Source: Longimicrobiales bacterium
Lineage (GTDB): Bacteria > Gemmatimonadota > Gemmatimonadetes > Longimicrobiales > Gaopeijiaceae
Assembly: GCA_965248195.1 (NCBI GenBank)
Contig: CBDFIQ010000002.1
Span: 224,001 to 288,000 of the forward strand
Direction: 5' to 3'
DNA: 64,000 nucleotides
Shown: positions 49,960-60,040 of the stretch, one piece after another
Numbering within the stretch: position 1 is the stretch's first letter
Layout of the letters: each line of letters opens with the position of its first letter
Made by a program: the position numbers and the translations under genes
Notes under the pieces: generated by a model
What the model was told of the DNA's origin: nothing
The model's input: only the letters and a program-made list of their open reading frames with translations
The model's database searches: none

Positions 49960-50025
49960 CCTCTGGCGCTCAATCGCTGGGCGGCCTTCGAGGGCTGCGT
50001 TCGGGCGGATGATGAGGTCGCTCAT
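49960..50025 (-). pseudogene. Decayed N-terminus of a Ser/Thr protein kinase gene
   Basis: MSDLIIRPNAALEGRPAIER resembles the '...RLNAALEGRY.IERELG.GGM' start of Gemmatimonadota kinases; nothing further is recognisable. Confidence 0.5.
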
Positions 50026-50293
50026 ACGCGCAACATAGTCTCTCTGATCCGGTTGTGCGCCACCCACACCGCCTCAGGACTGGCCATCAGTCACTACTAC
50101 CGAGAAGCCGCTTGATCGGTCGATCGAACATTGGAACAGGATGCCGTCGAGCCGGGGAAAGCCCCCTGAGTTTCTCCAGCACCTCCTCGTAGGTTTTCAT
50201 CGTGCGCGATTGGCCTTCGTAAACCCGATTTCAGAGTGCCACGGCACGCACCCGGGCGTCGGTGCCTGACCCGCGCCACACCGATGTTGTAGT

Positions 50294-51628
50294 TTGCCGC
50301 GAGAAACGCACGCAAGAAGACACCACATGCACCCGAAGGTCGGCCCGCCGCCGGGCCCCCAGGGGACAAAAGTTGTCAGCCGAGGTTCAGCTGTGGCCAC
50401 TGTCCACATCGCCATTCCGGTTCAGGACGAGCTCGAATGCCTTCCCGCCTGCCTCGACGCGCTTCGGCGACAGGAGGGCGTGCGATTTGTCACGTGGTTA
50501 TGCGTAAACCAACCGGAAGCGTGGCAACACGAGCCGGATCGACGCCCCGTGTGCGAAGCCAACCAGGCCTGTCTCCATCTGCTTGCCGGCGTCACGGACC
50601 TCGACCTCCGCATTATCGATCGCTCCTCACCGGGCCGGGGCTGGCTACCGAAGCGGAGCGGTGTTGGGCACGCGCGAAAGGAGTTGATGGATGCGATCTG
50701 TGCGGAGGCCGCCCCCCGGGATATCATCGTAAGCCTCGATGCTGACACGCTGACGCCCCCGGGTTATCTGCGGTCCCTTATCGTCTCCTTCAACCGGCAT
50801 CCGGCCGCCTGTGCCATCGCCGCGCGTTACTACCATCCACTCACCGACGACGGAGCCGTCACCCGCGCGATGCTGGGTTACGAAATCTACATGCGCTTCT
50901 ATGCGCTCAACCTCTGGCGAATCGGGTCTCCCTACTCCTTCACTGCGCTCGGCTCGGCAATTGCCGTGCCTGTTTCCGTCTACCGAAGAGTGGGCGGGCT
51001 GACGCCTCGAACCAGCGGTGAGGATTTCTACTTCCTGCAGAAACTGACCAAACATGGACGGGTACTCCATTGGACCGCCGCCCCGGTTGCCCCCGCGACC
51101 CGCAAGTCCTGGCGCGTTCCCGTCGGGACCGGTCAAGCCATCGTCGCCGCCTGCGAAGGCGAATACTCCGACCGCTATCCACTCTATGCTCCGGAACTCT
51201 TCGACCGGATCAGCCGCACCACCAGGGCCTTCCCCGAACTGTTCGCCGGACCGGTCGAAACGCCGCTTGACGAATTCCTGCGGAACAAGATCAGTACCGA
51301 CGCTCCATGGCAACCGCTGCGCGATAACCACACGACACTGGATCGATTTGTCCGCGCCTGCCACGAGCGGCTCGACGGACTCCGCATTCTGCAATACCTG
51401 AAGGCCGAGTATCGTGAAGCGCCGACCGACGACCGGGCCACGCTGATAGACTGGCTGGACCGGTACGGGTGCCAGTTTCCCGGAACCGAGACCGAAGCTT
51501 CGCGCGTGCGGGCCCTGCTTAACGAGCGCATGCTGGCCGATCTGAGCATTTCTGAACTCGACGCGATACGCCGGGTGCTTTTCCAAATGGAAGATCGCTA
51601 TCGTCGAGAGGACGACCTGGAGGGCTGA
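50294..51628 (+). CDS. Glycosyltransferase family 2 (GT-A) protein
   Basis: 'IAIPVQDE', 'GVGHARK', 'SLDAD' (DxD), 'VGG', 'GEDFYFLQKL'; start probably the GTG near 50393. Confidence 0.8.
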   Translation: MPRETHARRHHMHPKVGPPPGPQGTKVVSRGSAVATVHIAIPVQDELECLPACLDALRRQEGVRFVTWLCVNQPEAWQHEPDRRPVCEANQACLHLLAGVTDLDLRIIDRSSPGRGWLPKRSGVGHARKELMDAICAEAAPRDIIVSLDADTLTPPGYLRSLIVSFNRHPAACAIAARYYHPLTDDGAVTRAMLGYEIYMRFYALNLWRIGSPYSFTALGSAIAVPVSVYRRVGGLTPRTSGEDFYFLQKLTKHGRVLHWTAAPVAPATRKSWRVPVGTGQAIVAACEGEYSDRYPLYAPELFDRISRTTRAFPELFAGPVETPLDEFLRNKISTDAPWQPLRDNHTTLDRFVRACHERLDGLRILQYLKAEYREAPTDDRATLIDWLDRYGCQFPGTETEASRVRALLNERMLADLSISELDAIRRVLFQMEDRYRREDDLEG

Positions 51629-51734
51629 GTCACCCATCCCGAGAAGGGTCATCGTGCCCAAGGGTCCTGCACGCGAGCTTCTCGTCGCATGACCCGCCTC
51701 GCTGAGCACTGGACAACCGGTGTCGCATGACCCA

Positions 51735-51953
51735 TGAGACCCCAACTGGGACCCCAAACTCCCCGAAACTGGTCGAATCTCAGCAAAACTCTGGAGAACA
51801 ACCGACCCTCTAACCCCCTAACTCACAGTAACTTAGACGACCTCAATAGCACTCTGCGTATATGCTGCTATCGGACTTTTAATCCGTAGGTCGTGGGTTC
51901 GAGACCCACCCGGCTCATTGGCCGGAAGTCCAGTAGGTAGGCGGGCTTCCGGC
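51735..51953 (+). repeat. tRNA-Lys att copy 3 (46-bp core 51872-51917) with upstream arm-like repeats and downstream hairpin
   Basis: CGGACTTTTAATCC...CCGGCTCA identical to the tRNA; TGAGACCCCAAC-TGGGACCCCAAA at 51735; hairpin 51921-51953. Confidence 0.93.
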
Positions 51954-52112
51954 TTTTTGGTGGCACGCCAGGCATGGCGCGACCCGCCGAAAGGCGGGAA
52001 GTAACCGTGTTGTTGGCGGCCACCCAATATTTCCCATATGTTGGAGTGAACCCTACAAAGTGGACACAGAGGGGGCGATGGATTGACCTTCCGTAATCAC
52101 TCGGGAGGTTCG

Positions 52113-52475
52113 ATGACGGTTCGACGACACACGAGGTACAGCACGGAGTTCAAGATCCAGCTGGTCCAGGCGTACTTGGATGGAGAAGGCAGTGCGAGGG
52201 CGATCGCTACTCGACACAGTGTACCTCACTCCCTACTCATGATCTGGGTCAAGAAGTACGGGGAAGGCGAACTTACGGAGGAGATCCACCTGCAGGAGCA
52301 AGTTGTCGAGGACCAGGCCAAGATCGCGGCACTCGAGCGCAAGATTGGTCAGTTGACGATGGAACTCGACGCCATGAAAAAAAGGGCTCTGATACAGCCG
52401 TCACAGAAAAGCGCGCGGCCGTCGATCATCTCCGGGCCAGGGGTGTCCCTGTCCGACGGGGATGCAGCCTCATGA
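52113..52475 (+). CDS. IS3-family OrfA (HTH_Tnp_1)
   Basis: 'RYSTEFKIQLV', 'IA.RH.V..SLL..WVKKY', leucine zipper 'IAALERKIGQLTME'; GGAGG before ATG 52113. Confidence 0.9.
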   Translation: MTVRRHTRYSTEFKIQLVQAYLDGEGSARAIATRHSVPHSLLMIWVKKYGEGELTEEIHLQEQVVEDQAKIAALERKIGQLTMELDAMKKRALIQPSQKSARPSIISGPGVSLSDGDAAS

Positions 52476-53266
52476 ACATCCCGAGGAGTACCTTCTACAA
52501 GCGACCGGATGCGGCCTGCGAGACCGCTCGGGAGAGAGCGGACGGGGACCTGCGCGTGCGGATCGAAGACATTCTCGCCGAGTTCCCCGCCTACGGATAT
52601 CGCCGGGTCACGCACGAACTCGGGAGACGCGGCCTGGTGGTCAATCACAAGCGAGTCTCTAGGATTATGCGTGAACACGCGCTTACGCCCCACCGCGTAC
52701 GCGCATGGCTTGCTACGACGAACAGCAATCACAAGCAGCGCATCTACCCGAACCTGAGGTCGTCGATCACGCCCGAGGGGCCTGACGAGCTCTGGGTGGC
52801 CGATCTGACGTACATCCGGCTCACGACCGGCTTTGTTTTCCTAGCCGTCGTGCTCGACGTGTGGTCGCGGCGTGTCATTGGCTACGCCATCAGCCATCTC
52901 CTGGACGTGCGTCTTTGCCTGGCCGCACTCGATGCCGCACTCGAACTTCGGCAGCCGCGGTCTGGCCTCATCCACCACTCCGATCGCGGCGTCCAGTATG
53001 CATCCCAATTGTACCGTTCACGTCTCGCCGAACACGGTGTCCGAGGATCGATGTCCCGGCGGGGCAACCCGTACGACAACGCCCATGTTGAGAGCTTTTT
53101 CAAAACCCTGAAGCACGAGGAGATCTTGGCAAACGACTACAGCACAATTGATGACGTAGCCAACCGACTCCCCCACTTCCTTGAGGAGGTGTACAATCGA
53201 AGACGCTTGCACTCCTCGCTCGGTTACATGCCACCTGAGGAATTCGAGAGCATTCATGCAGCTTGA
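52472..53266 (+). CDS. IS3-family OrfB (rve DDE)
   Basis: 'YGYRRV', 'VNHKRV', 'WVADLTY', 'HHSDRGVQY', 'GNPYDNA..ESFFKTLK.E', 'YNRRRLHSSLGY'. Confidence 0.95.
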   Translation: MNIPRSTFYKRPDAACETARERADGDLRVRIEDILAEFPAYGYRRVTHELGRRGLVVNHKRVSRIMREHALTPHRVRAWLATTNSNHKQRIYPNLRSSITPEGPDELWVADLTYIRLTTGFVFLAVVLDVWSRRVIGYAISHLLDVRLCLAALDAALELRQPRSGLIHHSDRGVQYASQLYRSRLAEHGVRGSMSRRGNPYDNAHVESFFKTLKHEEILANDYSTIDDVANRLPHFLEEVYNRRRLHSSLGYMPPEEFESIHAA

Positions 53267-53367
53267 AGCCACTGACTGGTCAATCCAACCAACTCTCGTT
53301 GTCCACCCTCAGGGGTTCACTCCATGTGGCCATCGAAAATTGCACACTTGGCGGAGGTGACGAGCCT

Positions 53368-54210
53368 CTAGTTCGTCGTTTTCTCCTTTGCTCTTGCTCT
53401 CTTTCTCTTCGGGGGTGAAGGGCTCGACTCCGCAGGAGGCGAGTGGAGGATCTTGGAGAGGTCGGTGTGCTTGCGCATCCGGTAGCTGCTGCCGCGGATG
53501 TTGACGATATGGCAGTGATGCAGCAGGCGATCGATGAGCGCAGCGGCCATGACCTCGTCGCCCAAGATGTGGCCCCACTCCTCGAAGCCTTTGTTGGAGG
53601 TCAGCACAGTGGATGCGCGCTCATAGCGCCGGTTGATGAGTTGGAAGAAGAGCATGGCGCCGGTCTGGCTGACCGGCAGGTAGCCGATCTCGTCGATGAC
53701 CAGGAGCGAAGGATAGGTGAGGATCTTGAGGCGGCGTCCCAGCTGGCCGGTGGTCTTGGCTTCTTCGAGCGAGGTGATGAGGTCGGCCAGAGCGCCGTAG
53801 TAGACTCTGCGCCCGCTCTGAGCCGCGGCAATGGCGAGGCTGATCGCGAGATGCGTCTTGCCGACGCCCGGAGGGCCGAGGAAGATCACGTTCTCCTTAC
53901 GCTCCAAGAAGCCGAGCTCGTGCAGCGAGTCGATCTGCTCGCGCTTGATCGAGGGCTGGAAGCTGAAGTCGAAGTCGTCGAGGGTCTTGATGCCCGGTAG
54001 CCGGCTCGAGCGCATCGCAGCCTGAAGGCGGCGGTTGTTGCGCAGCGTGATCTGGGCACCGAGGAGTTGCTCGATGGCCTCCGAGGCCGTCACGCCTCCG
54101 CCATCGACCCCGGTGAGGACGTCGTCGATGGCCTCCAGCGCACCGGGCATCTTGAGATCGGCGAGCTGGGCTCGGATCCGGTCACGGCGAGAGCGAGCGG
54201 CAGCCTTCAT
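53368..54210 (-). CDS. istB: IS21 helper ATPase IstB
   Basis: 'FDFSFQP', 'GPPGVGKTHLA', 'LLVIDEIGY', 'RRYE', 'TSN', 'DRLLHH', 'GSSYR'. Confidence 0.96.
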   Translation of the reverse strand: MKAAARSRRDRIRAQLADLKMPGALEAIDDVLTGVDGGGVTASEAIEQLLGAQITLRNNRRLQAAMRSSRLPGIKTLDDFDFSFQPSIKREQIDSLHELGFLERKENVIFLGPPGVGKTHLAISLAIAAAQSGRRVYYGALADLITSLEEAKTTGQLGRRLKILTYPSLLVIDEIGYLPVSQTGAMLFFQLINRRYERASTVLTSNKGFEEWGHILGDEVMAAALIDRLLHHCHIVNIRGSSYRMRKHTDLSKILHSPPAESSPSPPKRKRARAKEKTTN

Positions 54211-55236
54211 CGGTCCCCTCCCGCGATCTGGGCATAGGCCGTGAGGGGACGTCGCTCGACGTGGATGGCCGGCAAGGACGTCGTGCCGGGTGAGGAGCGA
54301 TCCGGAGGCAGGACGAGGGGGTGATACGGGCGAGTCGCCAAGGGCTCGAGGAGCAGTCGTTCACGCTCGAAGCGATCGAGGGGCCGCTCCTTCAGCGTTG
54401 CGTGGCTGCGCACATTGGCTTCCGTCTCAAGCCAATGAAGGGCCTGCGCGTTGAGATCGTCGTCCGACGTGAAGGTGCGCCCGTAGAAGAAGCTCTCCCT
54501 GAGGTAGCGGATCGGCCGCTCCACCTTGCCCTTGCTCTGAGCCCGATAGGGTCGGCACGCTCGGATCCTGAAGTTCCAGTGGTAGGCGTAGCGCATGAAC
54601 TCCGGGTTCTCGACGAGGGCACCATCGTCGTATCGACCGTCCTCGATGACGACCGCCTTCATTGGGTCGAACAGAAGCTCACGGGGCACGCCGCCGAAGT
54701 AGGAAAACGAAGACTCCAGGCCATGCATCAGGGCCTTCATGGTCTGCCGGGTGTAGAACTGAACCCACAGCAGCCTCGAGTAGCCCAGCACGACGATTAG
54801 TGCGTAACGCTTGCCCCACGGTAGCCGGAAGTGGGCGAAGTCCACCTGGCCCTGACGCCCAGGCGCCGTCTCGAAGCGCACGACCGGCTCCTCTGGGGGT
54901 CGAGGCCGGACCTTGCGTACATAGCGCTTCACTTTGGTTGTAACTGCCCGGGTAGCCAGCGGCCCGGACCTCCTTGAAGAGCCGTACAGCCGTGAGCTTC
55001 GGGTACTCCTTGAGACGCGTGTCGATCAACGGCTTGTACGGATCCAGCTTCGACGGCATCAGACATCTCGGACCGTACCCGACACGCTCTTCGTCCAACT
55101 CCCGGTCCAGTTGACCGGTCTCTATCCAGTGGTACACGGTACGGCGACTGACCCCCAGATCCCGGGCGATCACCGCCTTGTTCATCCCCTGCTCGAGGTA
55201 ATGACGGAGCAGCACGCGCTTCTCCCTTCCGATCAT
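54207..55236 (-). pseudogene. istA: IS21 transposase IstA, frameshifted
   Basis: HTH 'IARDLGVSRRTV', 'SKLDPYK', then an extra A near 54933; 'RFETAPG.QGQVDF', 'LGYSR', 'KGKVER'. Confidence 0.9.
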
Positions 55237-55537
55237 TGCACCTCCACGTTCGCGGTGGAGGCGCCAAGTGAATGGATCGGCCGGAAGATCGCTCGGGGTG
55301 GTGCCTACATCCCCACTCTCCCGCCCGCTAGGTCAAAGCGCCAAGTGTGCAATTTTCGATGGCCACATGGAGTGAACCCCTGAGGGTGGACAACGAGAGT
55401 TGGTTGGATTGACCAGTCAGTGGCTTCAAGCTGCATGAATGCTCTCGAATTCCTCAGGTGGCATGTAACCGAGCGAGGAGTGCAAGCGTCTTCGATTGTA
55501 CACCTCCTCAAGGAAGTGGGGGAGTCGGTTGGCTACG

Positions 55538-57104
55538 CGGAACCTGTCAACGACAATGGGACACTCTACGGGATTAATTAGAGAGCAATATCCTGTGTGG
55601 TGAGGGAAGGGATGGGAGGATTGATGTAGACGGCCTCCGGGAGCGGTTTGGGCTTCGGCACACCTGTGACGAAGCGTTCGGGATGAGCGGCCCATGCTTC
55701 GCGGAGCACGGATTTCCTGCCGGCAATGACCTGATCGGCGTTCCCGAAGTGGACCTGCTCGGGGGTTAGCATCGAGATACCGCCATGGCGGTGCTCGGCA
55801 TTGTACCAGCGGAAGAACGATCGACACAACGTCTTGGCCTGGCCCTGATCCCCGAACCGCCCGGGAAACGAGGGATGGTACTTCAAGGTTTTGAACTGAG
55901 CCTCGGAAAACGGGTTGTCATCCGACACCTGAGGCCGGCTCAACGAGCGAGTCACGCCGAGGTCAGCGAGAAGTTGAGCGGTGCATTGGCTCGTCATTGG
56001 AGCTCCCCGATCCGAGTGCAGGGTCAGGACCCGGGGCTGGACGCCATGCTTCAGGCAGCTCTGCTGGATCAACCGGCCGGCCAGGGCCGAGTTCTCCCGG
56101 TCCGCCACCATCCAGCCCACGACGTAGCGGCTGTAGATGTCCATGATGACGTAGAGGTAGTAATAGCTCCACTTCTTCGGCCCGAGTAGCCGCGTGATAT
56201 CCCAGGACCACACCTGGTTCGGCGCCGTGGCCATCAACTCGGGCTTCTTGTACTCGGGATGGGTGCGCTGCGCCCGGCGTTCCTGAACCGGCACCTCGGA
56301 GGCCAGAACACGATACATCGTGCGTTCGCTGCACAGGTAGACCTCTTCGTCGAGCAGCGTGGCCACCACCTCGGCGGGTGAGCGGTCCACGAACCGCTCC
56401 GAACACAGCGTGTCGAAGACCTCGCCTCGTTCCGTCTCGCTCAATGCCCGGGCGGGCGTCGGGCGGGGCTGCCGTTGCCCGGTCGATGGGCCTCGACGAC
56501 GGTAGAACGTCGATCGGGAGACCTCGAGAGCCGCGCACGCCGGTTTTACACCGACGTGCTTAGCCAGCTCATCGGCCGCCTTCAAGAGTTCGTCCCGTCG
56601 TCGAGGCTTATCCCCAGCAGCCCCGCAACTTTTCCCTGCACGTCGATGATCAGGTGTGCCTTCCTGAGCTCATTCTCGAGCCGTGCGTTTTGCCGCTCCA
56701 GCTTGCGTACCTTCTCATCCAGCGGATTCCGCTCCGGCTTGCGGCCGCGTTTCTTCGACAGGGCCTTCAGCGACCCGCTATGCGCCGCCTTGCGCCACGT
56801 CGTCAGGTGCGACGAGTACAGGCCCTCGCGCCGCAGGAGCTGACCCACCTCGCCGGGCTCGGTGCACCGGTCCGCTTCTTCGACGATCCGCAGCTTGTAC
56901 GATGGACTGAACCGCCGGCGTAGCGGCCTATCTACTACCTCCGGGTCCGCAGGAGCTGCCGCGCTTCGCTTGGCCTCCCCGATTCCAGGGGCACTACCAT
57001 TCTCTTCCATTCTCTCTCGCAGTCCCAACATGTTCGTTTTCTCTGCCTTCGCCCTACTCTAATTCTTTGCGTGCTCCGTGTCTCACGTACGTTGGCAGAG
57101 AGGG
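55538..57104 (-). mobile_element. IS3-like element A, copy 2 (1567 bp)
   Basis: Same ORFs as copy 1 (55578-56585 orfB, 56582-57031 orfA); ACG duplicated at 55535-55537 and 57105-57107. Confidence 0.95.
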
Positions 57105-57107
57105 ACG

Positions 57108-57790
57108 TCATCAATTGTGCTGTAGTCGTTTGCCAAGATCTCCTCGTGCTTCAGGGTTTTGAAAAAGCTCTCAACATGGGCGTTGTCGTACGGGTTGCCC
57201 CGCCGGGACATCGATCCTCGGACACCGTGTTCGGCGAGACGTGAACGGTACAATTGGGATGCATACTGGACGCCGCGATCGGAGTGGTGGATGAGGCCAG
57301 ACCGCGGCTGCCGAAGTTCGAGTGCGGCATCGACTGCGGCCAGGCAAAGACGCACGTCCAGGAGATGGCTGATGGCGTAGCCAATGACACGCCGCGACCA
57401 CACGTCGAGCACGACGGCTAGGAAAACAAAGCCGGTCGTGAGCCGGATGTACGTCAGATCGGCCACCCAGAGCTCGTCAGGCCCCTCGGGCGTGATCGAC
57501 GACCTCAGGTTCGGGTAGATGCGCTGCTTGTGATTGCTGTTCGTCGTAGCAAGCCATGCGCGTACGCGGTGGGGCGTAAGCGCGTGTTCACGCATAATCC
57601 TAGAGACTCGCTTGTGATTGACCACCAGGCCGCGTCTCCCGAGTTCGTGCGTGACCCGGCGATATCCGTAGGCGGGGAACTCGGCGAGAATGTCTTCGAT
57701 CCGCACGCGCAGGTCCCCGTCCGCTCTCTCCCGAGCGGTCTCGCAGGCCGCATCCGGTCGCTTGTAGAAGGTACTCCTCGGGATGTTCAT
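57108..57790 (-). pseudogene. IS3 element B OrfB, disrupted; remainder at 55426-55537
   Basis: Same sequence as 52472-53266 up to 'STIDDV'; the remainder 'ANRLPHFLEE...' lies beyond element A. Confidence 0.92.
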
Positions 57791-58149
57791 GAGGCTGCAT
57801 CCCCGTCGGACAGGGACACCCCTGGCCCGGAGATGATCGACGGCCGCGCGCTTTTCTGTGACGGCTGTATCAGAGCCCTTTTTTTCATGGCGTCGAGTTC
57901 CATCGTCAACTGACCAATCTTGCGCTCGAGTGCCGCGATCTTGGCCTGGTCCTCGACAACTTGCTCCTGCAGGTGGATCTCCTCCGTAAGTTCGCCTTCC
58001 CCGTACTTCTTGACCCAGATCATGAGTAGGGAGTGAGGTACACTGTGTCGAGTAGCGATCGCCCTCGCACTGCCTTCTCCATCCAAGTACGCCTGGACCA
58101 GCTGGATCTTGAACTCCGTGCTGTACCTCGTGTGTCGTCGAACCGTCAT
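57787..58149 (-). CDS. IS3 element B OrfA (copy 2)
   Basis: Identical protein to 52113-52475. Confidence 0.9.
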   Translation of the reverse strand: MTVRRHTRYSTEFKIQLVQAYLDGEGSARAIATRHSVPHSLLMIWVKKYGEGELTEEIHLQEQVVEDQAKIAALERKIGQLTMELDAMKKRALIQPSQKSARPSIISGPGVSLSDGDAAS

Positions 58150-58319
58150 CGAACCTCCCGAGTGATTACGGAAGGTCAATCCATCGCCCCCTCTGTGTCC
58201 ACTTTGTAGGGTTCACTCCAACATGTGTGCAATATTGGAAGGCCGCTAACACCCGGCCACGACCTCCGTCCTGGCGTAGGGCGGGGAAGGACCTTTAACC
58301 GAGGGGAATTGAGCGCGGA

Positions 58320-59515
58320 ATGAAGGTGAGGATCGTCAAAAAGCTCCCAGTTCTGGTCTTGATCATGGCGCCTCTGGGCCTTGAGGGGCAAGAGTTCTCG
58401 GGACCCGTCCTCCCAGTCGGCCAATTCCGGGTCGAGATCAATTCACTCTTCCATTTTGTGGACGAGCGTTTCGGCTCGCGTATGGAGGGCGGATCGCTCA
58501 TCGAGGAGGACGAACCGCTCGGGTTCGACTTTACGGACACGGCAGTCGGCACGCGCCTGTTTCCGGCTCTCGAAGATCTGGAGGCCGACCTGACAGCCGC
58601 GGCGGGTACCGCCATCACGCCATTGGTGCTCGGACGAACTCGGGCCGTTTTGACGAGGGACGCGGTCTGGCTCCCGATCCGGCTGGACGTGGGCGTGCTC
58701 GACTAGTTCACCGTTGGAACCACGGTTCCGTTTTCGCGACGCCGCGCGGAGTTCGCGACCTCCATCCAGACAGACGGAGCCGACGTGGGCGTCCCGCCGG
58801 GCACGGCCGGCGACTTCCTTGGAGAGGTCTCTGCGGCCAACGGCGCTCTTACCCTCGTAGTCACAACCTTATGCACAGCGGACCCATCGAGTCCGGAGTG
58901 CTCCCAAGCCACGAGCCTTTTGGCTGAGGGCGAGAATTTCTACGGGGCCTTGACTGATGCGTACGGGGATTACGGGGTGTTCCCGCTCGAGGGCTCCGGT
59001 ACGGGAGACGCTCTCCAGTCCCGTACGACAAACCTCCTGAACGCCTATCAGGCAGTCGGCGTCCCGCTTTTCCCGACGACCATCCCGTTGGCCACTCAAG
59101 TGCTGACCGAGGCGACATACCTGGACCTGGTGTCGAATCCCGCGTTCCGAATAAAGGGTGATTCCCTTAAGACGTGGAGGAGCCCTTGGGAGCTAGGGGA
59201 CGTGGAAATCCATGCCTACGCCCGCCTGTGGGGGATCGGCCAAGAGACCCCTCCAAACGAGCCGCAGCCCACCATTCGCGTGGAGATCGGCGCGGGTGCG
59301 CTCTTTCGAATCGGCTCGGGGCGAACGGACTCCCCGCGGAACTTCATCGACACCGGAGTGGAGATGGCCAGAACGACATCGAGTTGAGCGTGTTCGGAAC
59401 GCTGCACGTTGGAAACTTCCTCGGTATCGTGGGAGAGTTTCGGTATGGGATCCAGCAACCGGTCCAGGTTCTCAGACGGATCACGCCTCCCGATCGGATT
59501 TTCGCCCCACTCGAC
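58320..59515 (+). pseudogene. Disrupted exported/outer-membrane hypothetical protein
   Basis: Signal-peptide-like start; in-frame TAG at 58704 with the frame continuing to about 59360; frameshift (DTGV/GDGQNDIE); truncated at a junction with phage-like DNA. Confidence 0.65.
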
Positions 59516-59575
59516 CCAACCGAACAAGAGCCCGGCTCGGCAGACCACGCTCTCACTCTAGTAGGAGGCACGGCC

Positions 59576-60040
59576 ATGCAGTTCAGCACGATCAAGCGGC
59601 ACAACGGGAAGGTTCATCTCAGTTGGGAGCTCACGAGCCACGGCCAGAACGACATCGCTCAGGCCACGCTCACATCCGAGGACGAGCCGCTCTCCGAATT
59701 CATCGAGGCGCTCGATGCGTTTAAGGACGACGTGCTCTGCCTGTTGGAGTTGCCGAAGAAGTATGAGGATGGCCTCGAGGTCACGAAGCTCGCGATCAAC
59801 CGCGAGGCCGACGACGGACGCATCGGGTTGGTGATCACCGCAGTCAAGTCGCTCGGCTGCGGATCACTGGTCCTGAACACGCCGCACCTCCATGAGCGCA
59901 CCGAAGAAGGCGATCCCGGAGAGGGACACCTCACGTCCGTACAGTTCGACCGGATCCATGCGATCGAGGAAGCTGCCGAGAAGTTCGTCAACGGGCAGCG
60001 CCAGCAGGTCGACATGTTCGACCAGGACGAGGCGGCCTGA
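59576..60040 (+). CDS. Phage-type hypothetical protein
   Basis: AGGAGG RBS before ATG 59576; 'LNTPH' and C-terminal 'FVNGQRQQVDMF' typical of small phage early proteins. Confidence 0.65.
   Translation: MQFSTIKRHNGKVHLSWELTSHGQNDIAQATLTSEDEPLSEFIEALDAFKDDVLCLLELPKKYEDGLEVTKLAINREADDGRIGLVITAVKSLGCGSLVLNTPHLHERTEEGDPGEGHLTSVQFDRIHAIEEAAEKFVNGQRQQVDMFDQDEAA

What the first reader, a model, noticed from the sequence alone, without database searches (positions are those of the whole stretch)
52011..58251. IS3-family element inserted at the same nucleotide in BOTH terminal repeats of an IS21: a candidate site-specific parasite of IS21 ends
Seen: removing the two 1283-bp IS3-B copies rebuilds both IS21 ends, TGTTGGCGGCCACCCAATATTTCCCATA[TGT]GGCCATCGAAAATTGCACAC and TGTTAGCGGCCTTCCAATATTGCACACA[TGT]GGCCATCGAAAATTGCACAC. 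Each insertion follows nt 31 from the tip, duplicates the same TGT, and points inward, sitting between the first and second internal repeat of the end. The outer 28 bp of the two ends differ, so these are the real left and right ends and not one duplicated junction. Known: IS21 ends carry tandem IstA-binding repeats. Targeting of another element's IRs is established for IS110-family IS4321/IS5075 (Tn21 IRs) and IS231 (Tn4430 IRs), and IS911 inserts next to IR-like sequences. I know of no IS3-on-IS21 case. Inference: IS3-B is target- and orientation-specific. One possible cue is that the IS21 repeat AAATTGCACAC matches the IS3-B subterminal AAAGTGGACAC at 9/11, although the spacing is not that of a canonical IR-IR junction.
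Basis: partly seen in the sequence, partly recalled or inferred. Interest (0 to 1): 0.85.

Follow-up and report, generated by a model that had tools for sequence, protein, structure and literature searches.

The report
Jumping gene that targets IS21 ends
A small jumping gene of the IS3 family repeatedly lands at one exact spot inside the end-repeats of a different jumping gene (IS21 family), splitting the two binding sites IS21 needs in order to move, a clear case of one mobile element preying on another.

Summary
The junctions are real and as described. A 1283-bp IS3-family element (IS3-B) sits after nt 31 of an IS21-family tip on both sides of an IS21 core, each time with a TGT duplication.

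Three corrections:
- Copy 2 is itself split by a third IS.
- The left tip is not this IS21's own end. Relatives show that the true istB-side tip, also carrying IS3-B at nt 31, now lies 2.7 Mb away. An inversion between IS3-B copies, or a misassembly, moved it.
- Orientation is not fixed.

Targeting is strongly supported. All 4 IS3-B copies in this genome lie at this site. So do 27 of 58 unique junction flanks across 12 genomes, on about 8 different tip sequences. Near-identical IS copies within one genome occupy different tips. The preference is not exclusive: 31 of 58 flanks lie elsewhere.

The site is the junction between the first and second IstA-binding repeats, where published IS21 structures show IstA-bound DNA most sharply curved. 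I infer that this bend is the cue. Mimicry of IS3-B's own ends is the rival.

An unremarked precedent exists: IS1353 sits after nt 28 of IS1326 in Tn21.

Verdict: a new variant of a known kind (IS elements that target other elements' terminal repeats).

The parts
52011..52041 (+). 31-nt IS21-family outer terminal repeat ('tip alpha'), an istA-side type. It is not the original partner of the IS21 core to its right.
   Evidence: The same tip (30 of 31 nt) precedes the inner repeat and the istA start in G354.
52039..52041 (.). Left copy of the 3-bp duplication (TGT) of IS3-B c1. The right copy is 53325-53327.
52042..53324 (+). IS3-B copy c1, 1283 bp, IS3 family. Imperfect 47-nt terminal IRs (74%), orfA 52113-52475, an A7G slippery run at 52377-52384, orfB 52472-53266.
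   Evidence: I3 arms. (HTH_Tnp_1; HTH_21 + rve + rve_3). (four copies at 99.9% identity or more). The frameshift motif was read; the fusion protein is inferred.
53325..55367 (-). IS21-family element core ('IS21-1'). Inner (second) terminal repeats at 53328-53353 and 55339-55364.
   Evidence: (I2 arms). 80-99% identical elements in relatives.
53368..54210 (-). istB (280 aa), intact.
   Evidence: PF01695 IstB_IS21, E 6e-80.
54207..55267 (-). istA, split into two ORFs (54929-55267 and 54207-54932) by one extra base at about 54933.
   Evidence: rve in the C-terminal ORF. Contigs of 4 of 4 public runs lack one base at 54933 (table 4).
55368..55537 (-). IS3-B copy c2, right-end part (IS3-B nt 1114-1283).
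55538..57104 (-). 1567-bp IS3-family element ('IS3X') nested in c2, with a 3-bp duplication of IS3-B nt 1114-1116. 48 full-length copies in the genome.
   Evidence: my count of full-length rows. (HTH_Tnp_1; rve).
57105..58220 (-). IS3-B copy c2, left-end part (IS3-B nt 1-1116; 1 mismatch to c1).
58221..58251 (-). 31-nt outer terminal repeat ('tip beta'), the genuine istA-side tip of IS21-1.
   Evidence: Uninterrupted alleles. Joint 55364 to 58221 in 4 of 4 runs.
58252..58255 (.). CCCG, one copy of the 4-bp target duplication made by IS21-1. The other copy lies outside the tip at C2:2995963-2995966, next to IS3-B copy c3.
   Evidence: empty site in G006 and G005 read directly; coordinates overlap by 4 bp in G001 and G007.

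Best explanation
IS3-B is a recently active IS3-family insertion sequence: two overlapping frames, a DDE (rve) transposase and 3-bp target duplications. It has a strong regional target preference for one phosphodiester position in IS21-family ends. That position is the junction between the first (outer) and second (inner) IstA-binding direct repeat, and the duplication covers nt 29-31 from the tip.

Shown:
- The site is used recurrently on different tips.
- Both orientations occur.
- The preference is not exclusive.

Inferred consequences:
- The insertion puts 1.3 kb between the two repeats. IstA of IS5376 needs both repeats together for integration in vitro, so each hit should immobilise that IS21 end.
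- Two copies in one IS21 then act as recombination substrates. An inverted pair gives inversion (this window: tips exchanged with copy c3, 2.7 Mb away). A direct pair deletes the IS21 interior, leaving tip-IS3-B-tip relics, as in G370 and G349.

Inferred cue: the DNA deformation at the repeat junction. The sequence is rich in flexible CA/TG steps, and in the IS5376 IstA-DNA structure this is the most sharply curved part of the end. IS3-B's transposase would therefore favour it as a target, irrespective of which way round the circle junction docks.
For: Own genome:
- 4 of 4 IS3-B copies have their left end at nt 31 of an IS21-family tip. That covers 3 tip sequences and 4 different outer contexts.
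- 4 of the 6 IS21-family tips in the genome are occupied.

Relatives:
- Of 58 unique junction flanks from 12 genomes (classified by eye, sets coded), 14 left flanks end in a tip at nt 31, 6 right flanks are TSD plus inner repeat, 6 right flanks are the reverse complement of a tip, and 1 left flank is the reverse complement of an inner repeat.
- Complete insertions with matching TSDs: c1 and c2 (TGT), G370/L049 (CGT), G228/L260 (CGT), G349 C54 (TCT), G343/L257 reversed (AGA).
- Empty alleles of the same sites are seen.
- In a tree of 26 IS copies, copies cluster by genome and lineage, not by tip. Identical or near-identical copies occupy 3 tip types in G000 and 3 in G370.
- Two more distant IS3 elements in metagenome contigs (L139, L148; 2 of 81 junctions) also abut 31-nt tips that start with TGT.

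Double occupancy of one IS21:
- This window plus c3.
- Relics: tip beta-IS3-B-tip gamma in G370 C7, and tip zeta-IS3-B-tip beta in G349 C20.

Cue:
- IS1353 is only 30% identical to IS3-B OrfB and has different IRs, yet it sits at nt 28 of IS1326, between its two repeats.
- The 31 non-IS21 flanks resemble the IS21 sites only marginally. Mean in-register identity is 11.9 of 30 against 11.1 for random genome positions, Mann-Whitney p = 0.01. No loose general sequence motif explains the targeting.
Against: - The preference is not exclusive. 31 of 58 unique flanks lie elsewhere, and one lineage (G252, G307) is mostly in unrelated DNA with ordinary 3-bp TSDs. G252 and G307 each have only one full-length IstB match.
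- Many IS21 ends stay empty. G349 has 13 full-length IstB matches (12 without an internal stop); of the 12 IS21-1 loci whose ends I printed, 7 show both tips intact, and G349 has only 2 IS3-B copies. G006 has at least 6 empty IS21 relatives.
- Junction contexts are not independent events. An IS21 tip with its IS3-B can be carried to new places by recombination or horizontal transfer; for example, G252 and G370 share an identical flank.
- The bend cue is untested here. No IstA dependence is shown, and the only full istA in G000 is frameshifted.
- IS1353 in IS1326 looks like a single inherited event: 217 plasmids hold the same junction.
- The 2:1 orientation ratio might hide a weak bias, which a purely symmetric cue would not predict.
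Confidence: 0.75

Rival explanations
1. Pseudo-end capture. IS3-B's transposase binds the IS21 repeats because they resemble the subterminal part of its own inverted repeats, and it inserts next to them, as IS911 does next to IS911-like ends when OrfAB acts without OrfA.
For:
- By hand I align 13 of 26 positions between the site and the left IR, with the virtual tip 3 nt upstream of the TSD. This was not tested.
- IS911 targeted insertion next to its own ends is established. I recall Loot et al. 2002 and Rousseau et al. 2008; here I saw only their reference-list entries and a one-line mention.
Against: - Both orientations occur at the same TSD, including a complete reversed insertion. A directional pseudo-end should impose an orientation.
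- The hit tips differ widely in sequence.
- The spacing is not that of an IR-IR junction.
- IS1353, with unrelated IRs, sits at almost the same place in IS1326.
Confidence: 0.2
2. There is no insertion preference. One old insertion into an IS21 end was spread by IS21 transposition, co-divergence and gene conversion between ends and copies.
For: - The inner 29 nt beside c1 and c2 are identical, and the identity runs on 170 nt into the IS (I2). This is compatible with some conversion.
- Some flanks are shared between genomes.
Against: - IS copies that are identical or differ by 1 nt sit in tips that differ at many positions, within G000 and within G370.
- TSDs differ (TGT, TCT, CGT, AGT), and each matches its own empty site.
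- Both orientations occur.
- An IS21 split between its two repeats should not transpose (PMC10122671).
- Outer homology for conversion is 31 nt with 6 mismatches.
Confidence: 0.03
3. Survivorship. IS3-B inserts at random, and only harmless insertions inside other mobile DNA persist.
For: IS-rich genome. Insertions in dead ISs are neutral.
Against: Selection cannot explain use of one nucleotide position. The genome offers about 75 kb of IS3X (48 copies of 1567 bp) and 2 kb of IS21 interior as equally neutral targets, yet 4 of 4 copies are at nt 31.
Confidence: 0.02

Closest known systems
IS1353 (IS3 family) nested in IS1326 (IS21 family) in integron In2 of Tn21 / plasmid R100
   Same: An IS3-family element lies between the outer and inner terminal repeat of an IS21-family istA-side end, 28 nt from the tip against 31 here. 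The empty allele is common in plasmids.
   Different: - 2-bp rather than 3-bp duplication.
- Opposite orientation to the window copies.
- OrfB is only 30% identical and IstB 37% identical.
- It appears to be one inherited event: 217 records hold the same junction. In the papers I could search it is listed only as a component of In2.
- I could not read the original description (Brown et al. 1996, recalled).
IS4321 / IS5075 (IS110/IS1111 family) in the 38-bp inverted repeats of Tn21-family transposons
   Same: An IS whose habitual target is a fixed position in the terminal repeat of another mobile element, disabling that end.
   Different: Those elements use a DEDD transposase, make no target duplication, and have a strict site and orientation. 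IS3-B has a DDE rve transposase, 3-bp duplications, both orientations and off-target insertions.
IS911 targeted insertion next to IS911-like ends (IS3 family)
   Same: Same family and the same copy-out/paste-in chemistry. It shows that an IS3-family transposase can be steered to terminal-repeat-like DNA.
   Different: The IS911 target is its own kind of end, and the product is an end-to-end junction. Here the target is a foreign family's end, the insertion is a simple one with a TSD, and the spacing differs. Mimicry was not tested here.
IS1397 / ISKpn1 (IS3 family) in REP/BIME palindromes
   Same: IS3-family members with a narrow sequence or structure target (recalled).
   Different: Their target is a host repeat, not another transposon's end.

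Membership tests
IS3 family (for IS3-B) | DDE transposase with an rve catalytic core, preceded by HTH domains | tested here: met
   orfA HTH_Tnp_1 (E 2e-12). orfB HTH_21, rve (E 3e-22), rve_3.
IS3 family (for IS3-B) | Two overlapping frames (orfA, orfB in -1) with an A-rich slippery motif that gives OrfAB | tested here: met
   orfA 52113-52475, orfB 52472-53266, A7G at 52377-52384. The frameshifting itself is not testable here.
IS3 family (for IS3-B) | Imperfect terminal IRs ending 5'-TG...CA-3', and 3-4 bp target duplications | tested here: met
   (47-nt arms, 74%). 3-bp TSDs at c1 and c2 and in relatives.
IS3 family (for IS3-B) | Copy-out/paste-in through a circle with abutted ends | not testable with these tools
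   The public runs were available only as contigs. No circle junction was sought or seen.
IS21 family (for the host element) | istA (rve transposase) followed by istB (AAA+ helper) | tested here: met
   IstB_IS21 E 6e-80; rve in IstA. istA is frameshifted in this copy.
IS21 family (for the host element) | Ends made of two or more direct repeats (L1/L2, R1/R2) starting TG, and a 4-8 bp duplication | tested here: met
   Uninterrupted ends show an outer 31-nt repeat followed by an inner repeat. 4-bp TSD CCCG; 4-bp TSDs at L319 and L328.
IR-targeting IS of the IS110/IS1111 kind (IS4321/IS5075) | DEDD transposase, no TSD, single orientation | tested here: not met
   rve DDE domains, 3-bp TSDs, both orientations. 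IS3-B works like these elements in outcome only.
IS911-type end-targeted insertion | Target resembles the element's own IR, and insertion abuts it | tested here: inconclusive
   The 9 of 11 and 13 of 26 matches were read by eye only. The shuffle test was not run.

The most novel reading that the evidence does not exclude
The junction between the two transposase-binding repeats of IS21-family ends is a general landing pad for IS3-family elements across phyla (Gemmatimonadota IS3-B; proteobacterial IS1353). The reason would be that the IstA-end nucleoprotein complex, or the intrinsic bend it exploits, is read as a preferred target. On this reading one IS senses another IS's transpososome, disables it, and then drives its inversion or deletion. 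This would be a form of inter-IS predation that shapes IS21 copy number.
Probability: 0.3. Interest if true: 0.8.

Novelty: new variant of a known kind. Interest (0 to 1): 0.6.

Why it matters
Target choice of IS3-family elements is mostly described as loose. A lineage that hits a single position in a foreign family's ends offers three things.

[quoted passage not shown] The IS21 end structure is now solved.
- **An example of conflict between mobile elements.** The hit should immobilise IS21, and paired hits remodel or erase it. In this genome they are associated with a 2.7-Mb inversion.
- **A reading of a long-known oddity.** IS1353 inside IS1326 in Tn21-type integrons may be an instance of the same rule.

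It also warns annotators that IS21 tips attached to IS3 copies can mislead reconstruction of element boundaries.

Tried and rejected
- **IR-versus-target similarity scan with shuffles** (to test mimicry).
- **Wider clade** (80 genome loci at 44-79% OrfB identity). Only 1 of 80 (L049, the closest) has a true IstB beside it. 2 more had weak IstA-like hits at 30%. Targeting is therefore not shown for distant relatives.
- **Metagenome scan with the IR pattern**. Most of the 81 junctions belong to distant IS3 elements in unrelated AT-rich DNA. Only L139 and L148 are clear IS21-type tips. L163, L164 and L177 looked repeat-like by eye only.
- **Public runs**. They exist only as short contigs and none spans the stretch, so they cannot confirm or refute the assembled arrangement or the inversion.
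- **Shared motif in non-IS21 targets.** By eye several looked IS21-like, but the in-register test gave only a marginal excess, so I do not claim a general motif.
- **Pairing c1 or c4 flanks as the IS21 duplication.** No match; only c3's flank fits.
- **Literature.** Searches found no paper describing IS3-family targeting of IS21 ends. The library lacks most subscription journals, and ISfinder/TnPedia could not be consulted.
- **Earlier-scan look-ups** gave nothing on this element.
Full report
**1. What is in the window**

Reading 51800-58500 and the repeat scan confirm the nested structure:
- A 31-nt IS21-type tip lies at 52011-52041.
- IS3-B copy c1 lies at 52042-53324 (+), flanked by TGT on both sides.
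- An IS21-family core lies at 53325-55367. It has istB (53368-54210, -) and istA in two pieces (54207-54932 and 54929-55267, -).
- IS3-B copy c2 lies at 55368-58220 (-), flanked by the same triplet.
- A second 31-nt tip lies at 58221-58251.

c2 is itself interrupted at IS3-B nt 1114-1116 by a 1567-bp element (55538-57104).

Pfam assigns the parts as follows:
- IS3-B to the IS3 family (HTH_Tnp_1; HTH_21, rve, rve_3).
- The nested element also to the IS3 family.
- The core to IS21 (IstB_IS21, E 6e-80; rve in IstA).

An A7G run at 52377-52384 lies upstream of the orfA/orfB overlap, as expected for an IS3-family frameshift site (read; the function is inferred).

**2. Copies in the genome**

The window is C2:224001-288000 of a 4.86-Mb, 2-contig assembly. 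BLAST against it finds exactly four IS3-B copies:
- c1 and c2 in the window;
- c3 at C2:2994649-2995931 (-), identical to c1;
- c4 at C2:2712231-2713513 (+), 1 mismatch.

It also finds 48 full-length copies of the nested 1567-bp element.

All four IS3-B copies have their left end against a 31-nt sequence that starts with TGT. c3 and c4 share a third tip ('gamma'), which aligns without gaps to the two window tips.

An uninterrupted allele of the right-hand window end lies on C1. It proves the insertion and its TGT duplication.

Only six IS21-family tips exist in the genome, and four are occupied. Under random insertion, even two such hits in 4.9 Mb would be vanishingly unlikely (my estimate, not a computed test).

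**3. Relatives**

DNA searches found IS3-B relatives (78-97% identity) in 6 of 61 near relatives and in 13 of 401 genomes of the order. Five-genome searches then listed their copies more fully.

I extracted every end junction by BLAST coordinates. This gave 67 junctions and 58 unique flanks from 12 genomes. I classified them by eye:

| Flank type | Count |
|---|---|
| Left flank ending in an IS21-type tip at nt 31 | 14 |
| Right flank = 3-bp duplication plus inner IS21 repeat | 6 |
| Right flank = reverse complement of a tip (IS reversed) | 6 |
| Left flank = reverse complement of an inner repeat | 1 |
| Something else | 31 |

Further points:
- Eight of the 12 genomes have at least one IS21-site junction.
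- About eight tip sequences are involved.
- Duplications are TGT, TCT, CGT or AGT. Where an empty allele is known, they match it.
- L257 (G343) is a complete reversed insertion with its own duplication. Orientation is therefore not fixed. The split is 14 against 6 tip-adjacent junctions, two-sided binomial about 0.12 by my own arithmetic, and the contexts are not independent.
- A maximum-likelihood tree of 26 left-hand segments groups copies by genome and lineage, not by tip. Identical copies in G000 occupy three tips, and near-identical copies in G370 occupy three others. This is what repeated recent insertion predicts. It is the opposite of what a single old insertion predicts.

**4. Limits of the preference**

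- Full copies with ordinary 3-bp duplications lie in unrelated DNA in G006, G011, G307 and G252. One lineage is mostly off-target.
- G252 and G307 each have only one full-length IstB match, while G349 has 13 full-length matches (12 without an internal stop).
- Many IS21 ends are empty.
- The off-target flanks resemble IS21 sites only marginally in register: 11.9 against 11.1 of 30, p = 0.01, and 7 of 31 at or above the null 95th percentile, which is tie-inflated.
- Of 80 more distant IS3 relatives (57% OrfB identity or less, apart from L049), only the closest has IstB beside it.
- In a metagenome scan with the IR pattern, 2 of 81 junctions (L139, L148) abut 31-nt IS21-type tips.

**5. The window's left tip is not this IS21's own**

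- Intact copies of this IS21 in G349 have tip beta on the istA side (three loci read) and tip gamma on the istB side (two loci read). Of the 12 G349 loci printed, 9 begin with tip beta and 7 of those also end with tip gamma.
- Contigs of public runs read tip gamma immediately before 53327 (X1, X15). They join 55364 directly to 58221 in 4 of 4 runs.
- The window's left tip (alpha) is, in G354, the istA-side tip of an intact relative.
- Decisively, the 400 nt to the right of 58251 and the DNA outside tip gamma at c3 are contiguous in relatives of the same genus. The overlap is 4 bp in G006, G005, G001 and G007, and the coordinates are compatible in G011 and G004. Read directly in G006 and G005, the overlap is CCCG, present once there and at both G000 flanks.
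- Four-bp duplications also flank two intact G349 copies.

So this IS21 was inserted as tip gamma ... tip beta and received IS3-B at nt 31 of both ends. Its gamma junction was then exchanged with that of another IS3-B copy sitting in a tip-alpha end. The exchange is either an inversion between inverted copies c1 and c3 (2.7 Mb) or an assembly error at the repeat.

A repeat of about 230 nt, present just left of the window's tip, recurs 3-9 kb beyond c3's right flank in the opposite orientation. This fits the inversion. c3's right flank itself has no homologue in the genus.

One wrinkle remains. The triplet to the right of c1 is TGT, where the canonical istB-side site has TCT. This is a single-base difference. 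It may reflect conversion from the c2 junction, since the two are 100% identical over 199 nt, or a mutation.

**6. Consequences**

Spinola-Amilibia et al. 2023 (PMC10122671; passages read) report the following for IS5376:
- IS21-family ends consist of two direct repeats.
- IstA needs two complete repeats for integration.
- Catalytic subunits hold the first repeat and structural subunits hold the second.

IS3-B inserts exactly at that junction, so each hit should disable the end (inference).

Relics fit the expected aftermath of paired hits:
- G370 C7 has one IS3-B copy between tip beta and the reverse complement of tip gamma.
- G349 C20 has one copy between two tips.
- No IstA or IstB lies within 4 kb of the tip-flanked copies in G006.

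This is what deletion between two directly oriented copies would leave. An inverted pair, as here, keeps the core but inverts.

**7. Mechanism of site choice**

I favour recognition of the deformable or IstA-bent repeat junction. The reasons are:
- position is constant on divergent tips;
- both orientations are used;
- off-target sites share no clear motif;
- a distant IS3 member lands in the same interval of a distant IS21 member.

This is inference; nothing here shows IstA dependence.

The rival is mimicry of IS3-B's own ends.

**8. Known parallels**

- In R100 (NC_002134), IS1353 occupies L275:7398-9011, with its transposase on the minus strand. It sits after nt 28 of the IS1326 istA-side tip, upstream of istA, with a 2-bp duplication, between the outer and inner repeat.
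- OrfB and IstB are only 30% and 37% identical to those here.
- In PLSDB, 217 records hold the same junction. Many others hold the two flanks 198 nt apart, which is the empty site. This looks like one inherited event.
- The papers I could search list IS1353 and IS1326 only as parts of In2.
- Five full-text searches found no description of IS3-family targeting of IS21 ends. Subscription journals and ISfinder were not available.

**9. Verdict**

- The junctions are real.
- Target preference is strongly supported.
- Orientation specificity and the 'true left and right ends' claim are not supported.
- The phenomenon is a new variant of the known class of insertion sequences that home to other elements' terminal repeats.
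- There is a plausible, testable link to the solved IS21 end structure.

Noticed in passing
L049 3525-5145; also G006 C5, G349 C54 and C20, and several G370 copies (BLAST matches 1-955 and 953-1283): Many IS3-B relatives, from both the 96-97% lineage and the 82-85% lineage, are split at the same IS3-B position (953-955, 3-bp overlap) by an element of about 1.6 kb. Its 458-aa ORF has HTH_38 plus rve, which is IS30-family-like. This is either a second layer of site-specific IS-in-IS insertion or an old shared insertion. None of G000's four copies carries it. A public-run contig also ends at IS3-B nt 955 (record 1).
   Followed up: partly
window 54933: Contigs of 4 of 4 public runs lack one base here relative to the window. 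This extra base is what splits istA into two ORFs. The C1 fragment of the same IS21 shares it (no gap). It is therefore a real mutation of this strain, or a systematic homopolymer error.
   Followed up: partly
window 51734-51982; also C2:264908-264993, 269396-269469, 2985345-2991522: A repeat of about 230 nt recurs several times in G000 and in genus relatives. It includes a tRNA-like 3' portion at about 51870-51916. ARAGORN calls no tRNA in 50000-60000, and public contigs carry a tRNA 5' half just before 51870. It is possibly a truncated tRNA or attachment-site repeat, or a cassette-array unit.
   Followed up: no
window 52007-52010 and G000 C2:2994645-2994648 (first 4 nt of c3's right flank): GTGT precedes tip alpha, and GTGT also follows IS3-B copy c3. 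In the pre-inversion arrangement this would be a 4-bp direct repeat flanking 'tip alpha + IS3-B'. That looks like an IS21-sized duplication around a unit that lacks a second IS21 tip. It may be chance (1 in 256), or a trace of an unusual deletion or one-ended event.
   Followed up: no
G000 C2:2712200-2714355 (L011): IS3-B copy c4 joins tip gamma to the interior of a second, 83-88% diverged IS21 relative: istB from about codon 42, in sense orientation, then that element's own uninterrupted istB-side end. There is no duplication. This is another rearrangement product at an IS3-B copy.
   Followed up: partly
G370 C7 about 165555-165582 (L283): A relative of the 1567-bp IS3X element is inserted 27 nt into the reverse complement of tip gamma, that is, 4 nt from the IS21 tip. 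IS21 ends seem to collect insertions of more than one IS.
   Followed up: no
G000 C2:1467934-1468462: A paralogue (79-91% identity) of the IS21-1 target locus exists uninterrupted elsewhere on the same contig.
   Followed up: no
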